A DNA stretch of 61,392 nt, the filler included, from Eubacteriales bacterium (lineage in GTDB: Bacteria > Bacillota > Clostridia > Oscillospirales > CAG-382): NCBI GenBank assembly GCA_045636665.1. It is 4 parts of 4 records of this genome, joined end to end, with 100 filler letters (N's around TTAATTAATTAA, not from the genome) between each part and the next. Parts side by side here need not be neighbours in the genome. Positions count along the whole stretch, not along the records: positions 27,545 to 59,521 come from JAZTXY010000123.1; 3 more parts are not named here. One strand, 5' to 3'. The position numbers are program-made. Shown here one piece after another: positions 42,001 through 45,000 of the stretch (within the stretch, counting starts at the first letter, position 1; each line of letters starts with the position of its first letter).

Positions 42001-45000
42001 AGCTCGCCGATGACCTCGTCGGTTTTCGAAAAAATTCCGACAGTGGGATTCCATTCCTCGCGTTCAACGCTTAAATCGTACCTTTTGTCGATAAGCTCTT
42101 CGTTGTAAACGAAATTCTTATCTCCCTCGGGAACGAATTTGCGCCAAAGCGCGCGCATTTCCTTTTGTGTCATCGTGCGAAGATTAAGGTTCTTTCCGTG
42201 TGTTTCAATCATCTTTCAAAATCACCTTTCAATGCGCTCTCGTTGTAAATGAGTCAATTTTAGCAATTTCATAATTGGGAAGCTCTTTTATCTCGTGTAT
42301 GATGCTTGTGCCATTGTAGCATTTAACGTGCAAATGCTTGTCTTTAAGCTTTGTGTTAAAGAAAACTCTGCCCGAATTCATGGGCTTTGTTATGGTTTCG
42401 TTGTATTCTTCTATCCTTTTCGGCAACGGGAAGTAATATTTTTTGTTGTCCGCTCCGAACAAGGTCAGTCCGGTAATGATTACATAGCTGCCGTTCTTGC
42501 TTCTCGATTCGGTCGAAAGCTTAACGGCTGTGCATTCGATCTCGACTTTTTCTAAATCCTTACCGCGGGCTTTTTTAAGCTTGCGGTATACCGAAAAGTG
42601 CTTGAAAAACAAATTCAGAAACGCGCCCGCGATGACGCTGAAAACGGCAAAAGTAATAGTTGCAACAATAATTTTATCCTTATTGCCTATGCCCGTAAAG
42701 CACAGGTTTAAAACGATTATTATCGGCATCGGCGCAAACGGTAACGAAAACAAGCCGTAGAGAAGGCATGACTTTTTGACGTTTTTTATCTGCTTTTCGA
42801 TGATTTCGGTCATATCAAAACCAACTTTCTTTCATTTCGGTCAAAAACTCTTTTGTGATCTCAAAGCCCGATTTATCGCCGATTACCGAATCGTTACCGC
42901 AAAACGGACAAAGCGCTGTATCGCAATTTTCGTCTATCCAATTTTCAATTCTGCCTTTGTCAAATATTTCAAGACAGTAAAAGCATCCGCATTTTTCGCT
43001 TTTTTCAATTTCGGATTTATTGTTTGTGCAGTGTTCGTGGGCTTTTTTAAAATCGGACATAGCCGCACCTCTTAAAGAGTATTTTTTAATTTGCTTTTTG
43101 CAGTCGTTATGGAGGCAATGAGCTTTCTGCGAATTGTTCCCGATTTGTTAGTAAGAGCTTTGTAGGCGCTTTCGTCGATGGCGTTGATCTTAAAAAGAAT
43201 CTCAAACCAATATTCGGTTTCATAGCATTCTTTTAGTGCGATTTCTAATTTGTTTATAAAATCTGCGGTGCTTTGGGCATATTTGGCTTCGTGAGAATTT
43301 GCTCCAATCGAAGAGCAAGCGCGCAACAGTTGATTGATAAAAACGGAACGTCCTTTAATATTGTCGCACAGTACGGTAGTTTCCACGGTCAGTTCGACCG
43401 CTAACTCTTTTATAGTTTTGTCGTTCATTGTACGCCTCCTTCGCGATATATTCGCTGCAGCAAATGCGATATATTTTGTTTGCAAAATGCGATATAACCT
43501 TCGCATTGCTCGGTTGCGATATGATATAAATCCCTTTGCTTACGTTTTGAAAACGCAAAACATATCGCATCGCAGATATATCGCGCAAACGCATATCGCA
43601 AATCCCGACAGGGATTTATATCGTTGAAACTACTGTTTGCGAAGGCAAACAATAGTTTCTATATGCTCGGTAAACGGGAACATATCAACAGGTTGAATCT
43701 TTTTGACCTTATATCCGCCTTTTCTTAAAGTGAAAAGATCGCGCGAGAGGGTTTCGGGATTGCAGGAAACGTACACGACCGTTTTCGGGGAGAGGGCAAG
43801 AAGCGAATCGAGAAATTGCTTGCTGCAGCCTGCGCGCGGCGGGTCGGTAATAACAACGTCGGCGCTTTCGCCCTTTCTTGCGAGGTCTGCCATAAATTCA
43901 CCTGCGTCGCCGTTGATGAATTTTACGTTCTTGATTTTATTAATTTTCGCGTTTTGCATTGCGTCGGCAACCGCGTCGCCGTTCGATTCGACACCCAAAA
44001 CCTCGCGTGCGTTTCTTGCAACCGAAAGACCGATTGTACCGATACCGCAATAAGCGTCGATAACCCGTTCCTTACCCGAAAGGCTTGCAAATTCAATCGC
44101 CTTGGAATAAAGAATTTCGGTTTGCTTGGTGTTGACCTGATAAAAGGATTTCGGGCTTATGCGGAAATAATTCTCCAAAAGCTTGTCGGTAATATATCCG
44201 TCGCCAAAGAGTATTTCGCTCTTCGCACCGAGGAAAAGAGGTGTTTCGGTCGGGTTGATATTCCAAACGACGGTGGTTATATCGGGATGCTTTTTAAGCA
44301 ACGCGGAAACGAAAGCGTCTTTTTTCGGGAACTCGCCCTTTGCGGTCACCAAAACGACCATCGTTTCGTCCGTATTTACGGCACGACGCACCATAACGTG
44401 ACGGAAAAAGCCCTTGCCCGTGTTAAGGTCATACGCCTTTATTCTGAAATCGATGCAAAGGTCCTTGACCGTTTGCACTATCTTGTCGGCATATTCGTCC
44501 TCGAGCAAGCAACAATCGGTTTGCACAACTCTGCGCGTTGCCGACTGATAAATGCCCGAATAAATTCTGCCGCTTCTGAAAGCAAGCGCGTGCGAAACCT
44601 TGTTGCGGTAATGAAACGGCTCTTCCATACCGATAATTTCGTCAACGTGGCAGTATTTTCCTATATATTTGATTATTTTCGACTGTTTAAGCGAAAGCTG
44701 TTCTTCATAATCGAGATTTTGAAGCTGACAGCCGCCGCACTTTTTTGCAATGGAACAGTTCATGTTTTTGTTTCTCCGAAATTCCTTTTGAATTCATACG
44801 CGCTTTCATACACAGCGCATTTTGATATATTGCCGAAGCTGAATGCTTTGTAGCGGAATTTTTCACTCCTGCTTTAAATTAATACGGTTGTTTTTAAGCT
44901 CGCTGTAAAGCATTTTTGCAATATAGTGGGCATTGGCAGAAGATTTTCCCTTTGCGTTACCCAAAACCGCCACACCGATTCGTAACTGTTTATTGAGGAT

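What a model noticed while it worked through the whole genome (the two positions that open the first line are those of the whole stretch)
42866..43659. Branched-rod repeats behind tRNA genes and in front of Avd-like (PF05635) genes
At least 14 loci carry the same architecture: direct copies of a 7-10-nt arm, each with a small GC hairpin, then copies of the arm's complement, giving a long rod with hairpin branches. Arm sequences differ between loci but stay complementary. Six rods lie 32-55 nt behind a tRNA gene and its terminator, all three PF05635 genes have one directly upstream, and the MITE interior is one too.
Evidence so far: Repeat and fold analyses. Genome-wide scan gives 12 loci with score 5 or more in 17,771 windows. 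tRNA adjacency at C8 26927, C22 15049, C98 14497, C124 18984, C138 37531 and C14 58130. PF05635 genes at C14 58372, C123 15528 and C124 18542. In the order, 16 of 32 have a rod upstream against 2 of 32 downstream. C123 15322-16046 is missing in G003 and the region is absent in G005 and G175.
(Added by a program. Inside this text positions count along the whole contig: they may not be those of the stretch shown here. "Call 12" and the like, gene names such as g00115 and contig names such as C1 are that model's own, and its searches are not shown. The text may have been shortened before it was handed on; [...] marks where a part breaks off. The agent that wrote the report below was given it as the finding of a first reader that could run no searches.)

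Follow-up and report, generated by a model that had tools for sequence, protein, structure and literature searches.

The report
Gut-1 hairpin-array RNA before Avd-like gene
The repeat is real and is a divergent, full-length copy of an orphan gut-bacterial RNA motif (Gut-1) that sits behind tRNA genes and almost always directly in front of small Avd-like genes, which suggests the two orphans work together as an RNA-protein pair.

Summary
Window 43443-43623 (minus strand is the sense strand) holds four GCGAUAU arms, short hairpins, then four AUAUCGC arms. It ends at the Shine-Dalgarno of a PF05635 (Avd-like) gene.

My k-mer scan finds 12 such loci in the genome, against 1 in six Markov-simulated genomes.

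The element is not new in kind. It matches Rfam Gut-1 (RF01706, function unknown) below threshold. In the same order, 50 of 151 genomes have hits above threshold.

What seems new:
- The Rfam model covers only the 5' half. The full element adds a complementary 3' half.
- A 5' segment covaries with two alternative partners, which gives two exclusive folds.
- 15 of 30 top Gut-1 loci lie 31-44 nt behind a tRNA.
- 59 of 71 close relatives of the window's PF05635 gene have a rod upstream, and 1 of 79 has one downstream.

In the window's family the last arm abuts the ribosome-binding site, so the rod must be transcribed. One-sided changes are all G·U on the sense strand.

Best reading (about 0.45): a structured RNA that partners or regulates the Avd-like pentamer. 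Binding is inferred, not shown. The C123 "polymorphism" is a deletion in relatives.

The parts
43630..44763 (-). rlmD/trmA-family RNA (uracil-5) methyltransferase gene, directly upstream of the element on the same strand
   Evidence: PF05958 at 94.7 bits. An rlmD-like gene is the upstream neighbour in 13 of 80 related loci.
43626..43659 (-). hp0: a 15-bp hairpin that opens the element. It overlaps the last ~10 codons and the stop codon of the methyltransferase gene and has no U-run after it.
   Evidence: (I9). Equivalent hairpins of other sequence precede the first arm in relatives. Behind tRNAs, hp0 is a terminator with a T-run.
43610..43623 (-). Arm A0 plus segment X (sense CGAUAUAAAUCCCU), the 5' strand of both alternative helices
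   Evidence: (I10)
43600..43606 (-). X'a (sense GGGAUUU), the local partner of X. Together they form hairpin 1.
   Evidence: Covariation in 4 of 7 pairs.
43562..43599 (-). 5' arms A1-A3 (sense GCGAUAU at 43593-43599, 43578-43584 and 43562-43568), separated by two weak 3-bp hairpins
43536..43561 (-). Central hairpin (hp4)
43523..43535 (-). X'b (sense AGGGAUUUAUAUC), the distal partner of X. It is a 13-nt perfect complement.
   Evidence: I10. 12-bp helix, 99.5% paired, 4 compensatory pairs.
43443..43522 (-). 3' arms A'1-A'4 (sense AUAUCGC at 43516-43522, 43489-43495, 43466-43472 and 43443-43449), separated by three hairpins of 4-6 bp
43435..43442 (-). Shine-Dalgarno GAAGGAGG, directly abutting the last arm
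   Evidence: The same layout is seen in relatives: the gap from last arm to ATG is 10-17 nt in 22 of the 52 rods listed, and 19 of those 22 are GCGATAT/TCGATAT-family rods.
43072..43428 (-). PF05635 (23S_rRNA_IVP / Avd-like four-helix-bundle) gene, 118 aa
   Evidence: PF05635 at 72.6 bits against a cut-off of 33.8. PDB 2RLD at E = 4.8e-21.
42815..43060 (-). 81-aa Cys-rich (Zn-ribbon-like) ORF after the PF05635 gene. It belongs to the stretch missing in G003 and G005 but is not a conserved part of the cassette.
   Evidence: No Pfam match. No tblastn match in the 80 related loci.

Best explanation
**What it is.** The element is a divergent member of the Gut-1 family of structured non-coding elements. 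Its layout is:
- an opening hairpin (hp0);
- a 5' module of 3-4 copies of a 7-nt arm, each followed by a small hairpin of variable sequence;
- a 3' module with the complementary arm and further hairpins.

**How it is expressed here.** In the window it is transcribed on the minus strand, as the intercistronic leader between an rlmD-like gene and a PF05635 (Avd-like) gene.

**Folds.** The RNA can adopt two exclusive folds:
- hairpin 1 plus arm-to-arm pairing, which gives the branched rod;
- a 12-13-bp helix between the 5' end (X) and the centre (X'b), which leaves all arms single-stranded.

**Proposed function.** I propose that the RNA is the partner of the PF05635 pentamer. The protein would bind the hairpin/arm array, as phage Avd binds a stem-loop of DGR RNA. 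In leader copies such as this one, binding would shift the fold next to the ribosome-binding site and feed back on PF05635 synthesis. The far more numerous solo copies behind tRNA terminators would be further RNA partners of the same protein family.

**Shown:**
- the architecture;
- family membership at sub-threshold score;
- covariation of both helices;
- linkage to tRNA and to PF05635, with fixed polarity;
- the position of the ribosome-binding site.

**Inferred:**
- transcription of the tRNA-linked copies;
- protein binding;
- regulation.

**Confidence by step:** Gut-1-family structured element about 0.9; acts as sense-strand RNA about 0.7; partner or regulator of PF05635 about 0.4.
For: **Family.** The Gut-1 covariance model hits G000 rods at 46.8, 42.1, 39.0, 30.1, 27.5 and 24.4 bits. 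The last is the window rod. The gathering score is 50. In the order, 50 of 151 genomes have hits over the cut-off, against 0 of 14 control genomes. The hit alignment shows hairpins separated by GUGAAAU-type linkers.

**Full length.** 24 of 27 usable top loci carry the complementary 3' half. That half also matches the model on the reverse strand, at 47.2 and 41.9 bits.

**Arms are element-specific.** The reverse complement of an element's own arm occurs on average 3.3 times in its 3' half. Arms of other families occur 0.28 times.

**Covariation (18 sequences).**
- X:X'b has 12 pairs, 99.5% paired, 4 of them compensatory.
- Each of the three arm helices has a G-C to U-A double change.
- 0 of 500 shuffles reach the observed covariation score.
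- Slid controls pair in 14-58% of cells.
- The local hairpin X:X'a covaries in 4 of 7 pairs.

**RNA, sense strand.**
- All 8 one-sided changes are G·U on the sense strand.
- The sense fold is more stable than the antisense fold in 22 of 24 elements, by 5.8 kcal/mol on average.
- Loops in the 5' half are U..C type 53 times and G..A type 6 times.
- In 28 cassettes with a short gap to the start codon the Shine-Dalgarno follows the last arm. 25 of these 28 have no promoter-like site inside the rod.
- Four loci have a strict sigma-70-like site ending 19-22 nt before the first arm.

**PF05635 link.**
- 3 of 3 genes in G000 have a rod upstream.
- 59 of 71 have a rod upstream and 1 of 79 has one downstream, among 80 loci of close relatives.
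- 13 of 30 upstream and 3 of 30 downstream in the order sample.
- Control: the best PF05635 loci from a phylum-wide sample give 1 of 28 upstream and 3 of 28 downstream.
- Genome co-occurrence in the order: 56 with both, 9 with Gut-1 only, 15 with PF05635 only, 71 with neither. Related genomes are not independent.

**Precedent.** In the Bordetella phage DGR, all five Avd protomers contact an 11-bp RNA stem-loop with a UNCG loop (bioRxiv 10.1101/2023.10.23.563531, passages read).
Against: - No expression data could be obtained.
- Behind tRNAs the rod follows a strong terminator-like hairpin with a T-run, so little read-through is expected.
- In 11 of the 52 PF05635-linked rods a TTGAAA-17-TATAAT site lies between rod and gene. 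There the rod is outside that mRNA.
- Local hairpins are almost perfect palindromes: 1310 Watson-Crick pairs, 15 G·T and 7 A·C. They give little evidence on the strand.
- All arms within one element are identical. Pairing alone does not require this. It fits recognition by a factor, or homogenisation.
- A minority of rods (C8, C138 and C124 in G000) have the opposite loop polarity.
- Rods outnumber PF05635 genes. 9 of 65 Gut-1-positive genomes show no PF05635.
- Arm family tracks protein identity. Co-inheritance of a cassette would give the same pattern.
- Binding of PF05635 to this RNA is not tested.
Confidence: 0.45

Rival explanations
1. A selfish, non-coding dispersed repeat (MITE- or REP/BIME-like) that acts as DNA. 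It spreads into the DNA just behind terminators, and PF05635 is a frequent passenger or neighbour.
For: - The element is multi-copy and dispersed: up to 28 scored hits per genome. Near-identical copies sit behind different tRNAs in different families.
- The GCGATAT family lies in unrelated housekeeping contexts in G026, G013 and G019.
- At one orthologous tRNA-Glu locus, three close relatives differ. One has no rod, one has a GTATATCATC rod, and one has a GTGAAG rod plus PF05635. Each has a different terminator.
- A 4-copy MITE-like family has a rod inside it.
- Hairpin stems are near-perfect palindromes.
Against: - No target-site duplication or transposase was found. The only Y1_Tnp signal is a weak partial match of 24.3 bits. 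No RVT_1 was found.
- There is no match in the phage or plasmid collections.
- Orientation relative to the tRNA and to PF05635 is fixed, and wobble changes lie on one strand only.
- Stems vary while linkers are conserved, which is the reverse of REP elements.
- The rlmD-rod-PF05635 arrangement persists across species whose methyltransferases share only 36-55% identity. That points to long vertical stability.
- Mobility and an RNA function are not exclusive.
Confidence: 0.22
2. A double-stranded DNA control region. The arms would be binding sites, in direct and then inverted orientation, for a DNA-binding factor (possibly PF05635 itself) that controls the adjacent PF05635 promoter.
For: - All arms of an element are identical, and arm family changes together with protein identity.
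- In 11 loci the -35 box abuts or overlaps the last arm.
- Rods sit either just upstream or just downstream of the promoter.
Against: - The spacers between arms are selected to be intrastrand hairpins with compensatory changes and strand-specific loop types. Duplex DNA sites have no need for this.
- Arm spacing is irregular, at 15-30 nt.
- Most rods have no PF05635 gene nearby.
- One-sided changes keep G·U pairs on one strand.
Confidence: 0.1
3. A 3'-end element of the upstream gene: a back-up terminator, an insulator, or a barrier to exonucleases, similar in function to REP elements. Its link to PF05635 would be only positional.
For: - It always follows a hairpin at the end of a tRNA or protein gene. 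15 of 30 top loci lie 31-44 nt behind a tRNA.
- 6 of 22 tRNA-cluster ends in G000 carry a rod.
- Copies also lie behind protein genes.
Against: - This does not explain the complementary second half, the two alternative covarying helices, or the 59 of 71 against 1 of 79 polarity towards PF05635.
- It does not explain copies that start at their own promoter.
Confidence: 0.1
4. A type III toxin-antitoxin-like pair: a repeat RNA encoded upstream neutralises a toxic small protein, here PF05635.
For: The gene order resembles ToxIN (recalled layout, not from a call): promoter, repetitive structured RNA, small protein gene. The cassettes are compact and solitary, and they are lost or swapped between close relatives.
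Against: - The repeats are 7-nt arms with unrelated hairpins, not tandem identical units.
- The protein is a four-helix-bundle PF05635 and not a ToxN-type RNase.
- No toxicity is known.
- PADLOC was not searched.
Confidence: 0.05

Closest known systems
Gut-1 RNA motif (Rfam RF01706; Weinberg et al. 2010, PMC2864571)
   Same: Consecutive short GC hairpins are separated by a repeated 7-nt linker, preceded by a CAAY..AAAU lead. The motif occurs in uncultured gut Clostridia. The model hits the rods of this genome, and relatives in the same genus score above threshold. The seed alignment was seen in the paper's supplementary archive.
   Different: - The window copy scores 24.4 bits against a gathering score of 50, and its linker is GCGAUAU rather than GUGAAAU.
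- The Rfam model has 77 positions and covers only the 5' half.
- The complementary 3' half, the X/X'a/X'b alternative pairing, the tRNA-terminator position and the PF05635 linkage are not in the main text of the paper. There Gut-1 appears in three places: twice in Table 1 and its notes, and once in the text as a likely non-coding RNA found only in environmental sequences.
- The paper's Additional file 1, which discusses each motif, was not among the files held, so I cannot exclude that some of this is noted there.
Avd with the Avd-binding stem-loop of DGR RNA (Bordetella phage BPP-1)
   Same: A PF05635-type pentameric four-helix-bundle protein is encoded next to a structured non-coding RNA. 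In the DGR, all five protomers grip an RNA stem-loop with a UNCG loop.
   Different: No reverse transcriptase was found in this genome, and no template or variable repeat was looked for. Here the RNA lies upstream of the gene and is an array of many hairpins. Binding is not shown.
23S rRNA intervening sequences carrying an S23p (PF05635) ORF (Leptospira, Coxiella; PMC4990558)
   Same: A PF05635 gene is embedded in or attached to a stable-RNA gene, together with a long complementary-ended RNA structure. In Coxiella, tandem heptamer repeats lie just upstream of the ORF (passages read).
   Different: The element here is not inside an rRNA. Rfam finds no rRNA in the window. Both complementary halves lie upstream of the ORF. 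The heptamers are separated by hairpins. RNase III excision is not indicated.
REP/BIME and MITE-type intergenic repeats
   Same: Multi-copy palindromic intergenic elements found at the 3' ends of transcription units, with presence/absence variation between relatives.
   Different: In REP elements the palindrome is conserved. Here the stems vary freely and the linkers are conserved. No cognate transposase was found. Polarity towards a specific gene family is strong.

Membership tests
Rfam Gut-1 (RF01706) | Covariance-model score at or above the curated gathering score of 50 bits | tested here: not met
   The window rod scores 24.4 bits, E = 0.56. The best score in G000 is 46.8 bits at C97. Relatives meet it: 50 of 151 genomes in the order, including same-genus G011 at 76.4 bits.
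Rfam Gut-1 (RF01706) | Three or more short hairpins separated by a repeated ~7-nt linker, after a CAAY..AAAU lead | tested here: met
   Sense strand: UUUCAACGAUAUAAAUCCC-loop-GGGAUUU, then GCGAUAU three times with hairpins. The linker differs from the consensus GUGAAAU.
PF05635 (23S_rRNA_IVP / Avd-like) | Pfam HMM score above 33.8 bits | tested here: met
   72.6 bits, covering 101 of 106 model positions. PDB 2RLD at E = 4.8e-21.
PF05635 (23S_rRNA_IVP / Avd-like) | Motif GxxRxxxSxxxNxxE (as given in PMC3936711) | tested here: met
   The translation reads ..NQLLRACSSIGANSHEA.., so R-x3-S-x3-N-x2-E is present. The leading G is Q here.
PF05635 (23S_rRNA_IVP / Avd-like) | Homopentameric barrel | not tested
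   No structure or complex prediction was run.
Diversity-generating retroelement | Reverse transcriptase next to the avd gene | tested here: not met
   No RVT_1 match in G000, which is 80% complete. The neighbours are a methyltransferase gene and a small Cys-rich ORF.
Diversity-generating retroelement | Template and variable repeat pair | not tested
   Not searched for.
23S rRNA intervening sequence | Located inside helix 25 or 45 of a 23S rRNA gene | tested here: not met
   The Rfam gathering scan of the window finds only four tRNAs. The locus lies between protein genes.
Type III toxin-antitoxin | Tandem identical RNA repeats upstream of a ToxN/AbiQ-type endoribonuclease gene | tested here: not met
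   The repeat units share only the 7-nt arm. The protein is PF05635.
REP/BIME with RAYT | A conserved palindrome sequence and a Y1 transposase in the genome | tested here: inconclusive
   Stems are not conserved in sequence. There is one weak partial Y1_Tnp match of 24.3 bits over model positions 2-42 of 121.
MITE | Terminal inverted repeats, target-site duplication, many near-identical copies | tested here: inconclusive
   The window rod is single-copy in G000 by blastn, but its family is multi-copy in G026, G013 and G019. No duplication is seen at the G005 empty site. A separate 4-copy family with a rod inside looks MITE-like.

The most novel reading that the evidence does not exclude
Gut-1 RNA and the Avd-like PF05635 pentamer form a free-standing ribonucleoprotein. 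It would be a relative, without reverse transcriptase, of the Avd-RNA module of diversity-generating retroelements. It rides on stable-RNA transcription units: here behind tRNAs, elsewhere inside 23S rRNA as intervening sequences. The repeated arms would present several equivalent sites to the five-fold protein. The X/X'a/X'b switch would couple protein occupancy to PF05635 translation. This would give the first functional handle on two orphans at once: the S23p/IVS-protein family and the Gut-1 motif.
Probability: 0.3. Interest if true: 0.8.

Novelty: new variant of a known kind. Interest (0 to 1): 0.62.

Why it matters
Gut-1 has been in Rfam since 2010 with no function, no known host context and a half-length model. 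PF05635 proteins outside diversity-generating retroelements have had no function since the 1990s.

A tight, polar linkage between the two (59 of 71 upstream, 1 of 79 downstream) turns both into one testable question: does the pentamer bind this RNA, and what does that do next to tRNA genes?

The finding also supplies:
- a corrected full-length architecture, with two covariation-supported folds, for the RNA family;
- evidence that the DNA just behind tRNA terminators in these gut Clostridia is a site of rapid module turnover.

Tried and rejected
- **Expression.** The look-up of sequencing runs (kind rna) on window 40000-49900 listed no RNA holder. This says nothing about expression.
- **Rfam.** The gathering scan of the window gives only tRNAs. 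Only the E-value mode exposed Gut-1.
- **Phages and plasmids.** The canonical rod finds no match in either collection in distant blastn mode.
- **Retro-mobility.** No RVT_1 match in G000.
- **Zn-ribbon ORF and membrane-protein gene.** Neither is part of the cassette in relatives. tblastn finds no match in the 80 loci.
- **Strand evidence from local hairpins.** 15 G·T against 7 A·C is too weak to use. The long-range helices were more informative.
- **Insertion reading of the C123 stretch.** Rejected in favour of deletion.
- **False positives of my k-mer scan.** C72:14799-14925 and the tRNA-Leu flank on C86.
- **Literature.**
  - 'Gut-1 RNA' found an unrelated 2026 methods paper.
  - 'Gut-1' with Weinberg, motif and RNA found only the 2010 paper.
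  - 'PF05635' found one DGR paper.
  - The search for '23S rRNA-intervening sequence protein' / 'four helix bundle' listed nothing relevant among the 20 papers shown.
  - No paper in these listings links Gut-1 to tRNA genes or to PF05635.
- **Minimum-free-energy folds.** Folds of canonical copies mix hairpin and arm sequences and do not decide between the two folds.
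Full report
**1. The observation**

The repeat is in the window as described. I use corrected coordinates.
- On the + strand GCGATAT occurs at 43443, 43466, 43489 and 43516.
- ATATCGC occurs at 43562, 43578 and 43593, with TATATCG at 43617.
- Short palindromes lie between the copies.
- A 15-bp hairpin lies at 43626-43659. A perfect 13-nt long-range complement joins 43523-43535 to 43610-43622.

The minus strand folds to -86.3 kcal/mol, with z = -5.9 and 0 of 200 shuffles as stable. Its minimum-energy fold has hp0, hairpin 1 and a long imperfect rod. The plus strand gives -74.9 kcal/mol.

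The genes are all on the minus strand, in this order:
- an rlmD/trmA-type methyltransferase gene (43630-44763; PF05958, 94.7 bits);
- the element;
- a PF05635 gene (43072-43428; 72.6 bits);
- an 81-aa Cys-rich ORF;
- a membrane-protein ORF.

**2. More than chance**

- A k=7 scan for at least 2 direct copies followed by at least 2 reverse-complement copies within 260 nt gives 12 loci with score 5 or more in the 1.8-Mb genome.
- Six Markov-3 simulated genomes give 0, 0, 0, 1, 0, 0.
- Eleven of the 12 have the arm-plus-hairpin layout. C72 does not.
- Six of 22 tRNA-cluster ends with enough contig downstream carry a rod.
- All 3 PF05635 genes have a rod upstream.

**3. What it is**

An E-value scan against Rfam shows that the rods match Gut-1 (RF01706) below its gathering score of 50 bits. 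C97 scores 46.8, C14 scores 42.1, C98 scores 39.0 and the window scores 24.4.

The model has 77 positions. It reads CAAyGAAAU, hairpin, GUGAAAU, hairpin, GUGAAAU, hairpin, UGAAAU. That is exactly 'direct copies of an arm, each with a small GC hairpin'.

In a sample of the order, 65 of 151 genomes have hits at E of 1e-4 or better, and 50 of 151 have hits above the cut-off. Up to 28 hits were scored per genome, with a ceiling of 29 candidates scored per genome. None of 14 control genomes has a hit.

Gut-1 was described in 2010 as a likely non-coding RNA known only from gut metagenomes (PMC2864571: main-text passages, and the seed alignment in a supplementary archive). The supplementary text file on individual motifs was not available to me.

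**4. The full element**

The 90-bit hits all read the same way:
1. a tRNA;
2. CCA followed by an A-run;
3. a terminator hairpin;
4. a T-run, then CAAC;
5. UAAAUCCACCC-loop-GGGUGG;
6. three GUGAAAU arms with hairpins;
7. AGUGGGUGGAUUUAA;
8. four AUUUCAC arms with hairpins.

- Of 27 usable top loci, 24 have the complementary 3' half.
- That half also matches the Gut-1 model on the opposite strand, at 47.2 and 41.9 bits. A rod is therefore two Gut-1-like modules facing each other.
- Arm sequences differ between families: GUGAAAU, AUGAAAU, GUGAUAU, GUGAAGU, GCGAUAU, UCGAUAU and others. They are always complementary within an element. An element's own arm complement occurs 3.3 times on average in its 3' half, against 0.28 times for arms of other families.

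**5. Two folds**

The 5' segment X, which is arm-like plus the 5' strand of hairpin 1, has a local partner X'a and a central partner X'b. Both track X across at least ten sequence variants.

I aligned 18 copies of the window's own family.
- The X:X'b helix (12 bp) is paired in 99.5% of cells and has 4 compensatory pairs.
- Each of the three arm helices (A1:A'4, A2:A'3, A3:A'2) carries a G-C to U-A double change.
- 0 of 500 shuffles reach the observed covariation score. Slid controls pair in 14-58% of cells.
- The local hairpin X:X'a covaries in 4 of 7 pairs.

X cannot pair with both partners at once. X:X'b also encloses the 5' arms while the 3' arms stay outside it. The 'branched rod' and the 'closed 5' domain' are therefore alternative states, or else a pseudoknot. 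The sequences are related, so the shuffle counts overstate significance. The slid controls are the fairer comparison.

**6. RNA or DNA**

Evidence for RNA on the sense strand, which is the strand of the tRNA and of PF05635:
- All 8 one-sided changes in the long-range helices are G·U on that strand.
- The sense fold is more stable in 22 of 24 elements, by 5.8 kcal/mol on average.
- Loops in the 5' half are U..C type 53 times and G..A type 6 times.
- In the window's family the last arm abuts the Shine-Dalgarno. The gap to ATG is 10-17 nt in 22 of the 52 rods listed, and 19 of those 22 are GCGATAT/TCGATAT-family rods.
- 25 of 28 such cassettes have no promoter-like site inside the rod.
- Four have a strict sigma-70-like site ending 19-22 nt before the first arm.

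So in these copies the rod has to be part of the PF05635 mRNA.

Evidence against:
- Behind tRNAs the rod follows a strong terminator-like hairpin.
- In 11 of 52 cassettes a TTGAAA-17-TATAAT site lies between rod and gene.
- Local stems are near-perfect palindromes.
- No RNA run could be listed, which is no evidence either way.

**7. Link to PF05635**

- Among 80 loci from other species that encode proteins 47-82% identical to the window's, 59 of 71 with enough upstream DNA have a rod within 420 nt upstream. Only 1 of 79 has one downstream. These species are Clostridia MAGs labelled Oscillospiraceae, Acutalibacteraceae, Faecousia, Congzhengia and the like, many of them labelled as coming from the guts of goat, sheep, deer, yak or water buffalo. 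The 80 loci are the best 80 of 593 and are not independent.
- In the order sample the figures are 13 of 30 upstream and 3 of 30 downstream. Nine of the 13 also have a tRNA in front of the rod.
- The best PF05635 loci from a phylum-wide sample score 113-148 bits and belong to another subfamily. They give 1 of 28 upstream and 3 of 28 downstream. This serves as a control for the scanner.
- Genome co-occurrence in the order is 56 with both, 9 with Gut-1 only, 15 with PF05635 only and 71 with neither.
- Arm family follows protein identity. GCGATA arms go with 70-82% identity, TCGATA with 57-63%, and GTGAAA-type arms with about 50-55%. This fits co-inheritance of a cassette or matched specificity. 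I cannot separate the two.

**8. Dynamics**

- G003 keeps the 3' stump of the Cys-rich ORF and the last part of the rod, so it carries a deletion. G005 lacks everything between the two flanking genes, and its methyltransferase ends differently.
- An rlmD-like gene sits directly upstream of the rod-PF05635 pair in 13 of 80 loci, at 36-55% protein identity, with hp0 overlapping its last codons. The arrangement is therefore old, and the relatives have lost it.
- At the tRNA-Glu locus three close relatives differ. G005 has no rod, G003 has a GTATATCATC-family rod, and G000 has a GTGAAG rod plus PF05635. Each has its own terminator. Modules behind tRNAs do turn over.
- No reverse transcriptase was found. 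There is only a weak partial Y1 transposase match. There is no match in the phage or plasmid collections.

**9. Mechanism**

PF05635 proteins are homologues of Avd, and the nearest solved relative is 2RLD. In the phage DGR, the Avd pentamer grips an 11-bp RNA stem-loop with all five protomers (passages of bioRxiv 10.1101/2023.10.23.563531).

PF05635 ORFs also sit inside the rod-like 23S intervening sequences. In Coxiella, heptamer repeats lie upstream of that ORF (PMC4990558, passages).

The most economical reading is that the Gut-1 array is the RNA partner of this PF05635 subfamily. Leader copies such as the window's would use the X switch next to the ribosome-binding site for feedback.

This is inference. 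Binding, transcription of the tRNA-linked copies and any regulation are untested. Rivals are a DNA-level selfish repeat, a duplex-DNA operator array, a 3'-end element, and a type III toxin-antitoxin-like pair.

**10. Verdict**

The element belongs to a known but uncharacterised Rfam family, in a divergent form. In the papers I could search, the full architecture, the alternative pairing, the tRNA position and the PF05635 linkage appear to be unreported.

Noticed in passing
L104 about 2710-2860 (G003) and L105 about 2710-2920 (G005); also L045, L047, L049 upstream of the Gut-1 hit: A 110-150-nt GC-rich insert lies behind a tRNA and its terminator. It ends in a duplicate of the tRNA 3' end and is followed by a second terminator. 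The conserved core is GAATTGACAGTCCGGnGGACTGTCA. It looks like the footprint of a very small element integrated at the tRNA 3' end. No Rfam match at E of 0.01 or better.
   Followed up: partly
G000 C8:26895-27095, C138:37515-37665, C124:18945-19135; G003 tRNA-Glu locus (L104 about 2905-3090): A minority class of rods has the opposite loop polarity: G..A-type loops in the tRNA-proximal half and U..C-type loops in the distal half. This amounts to two modules back to back rather than face to face. 6 of 40 PF05635-linked rods fall in this class. Unexplained.
   Followed up: partly
Canonical Gut-1 loci L048, L051, L052, L053, L056, about 10-110 nt after the last arm: A tail conserved across families (..AAGAGTTCGAATTCATACGCAAAA..AAAATATCTTTTTCG..) follows solo rods and ends at another terminator. 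Its start resembles the TTCACT-17-TATGAT promoter region seen in front of PF05635 in cassette copies.
   Followed up: no
L128 (upstream of the PF05635 match at 1201): One and a half rods lie in tandem in front of a PF05635 gene: a complete rod directly followed by a second 5' half.
   Followed up: no
G000 C72:14799-14925: An array of TTCGACAAA-type direct and inverted repeats without hairpins lies in a promoter-like region. It is a false positive of the k-mer rod scan and is possibly a set of transcription-factor sites.
   Followed up: no
window 41-461 (minus strand): A tRNA cluster (Thr, Cys, Gly, Asp) lies at the very start of the window. Only 40 nt remain downstream of the last tRNA, so whether a rod follows cannot be seen.
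   Followed up: no
window 43630-44763 and 45911-47269 (minus strand): Two paralogous rlmD/trmA-type methyltransferase ORFs lie 1.1 kb apart, with a 343-aa ORF between them. Only the first was scanned against Pfam.
   Followed up: no
L029 (G026:C25:20700-25700): Three rods of the GCGATAT/TCGATAT family lie within 5 kb, interleaved with small Xre-type HTH ORFs and two unassigned ORFs of about 110 aa.
   Followed up: partly
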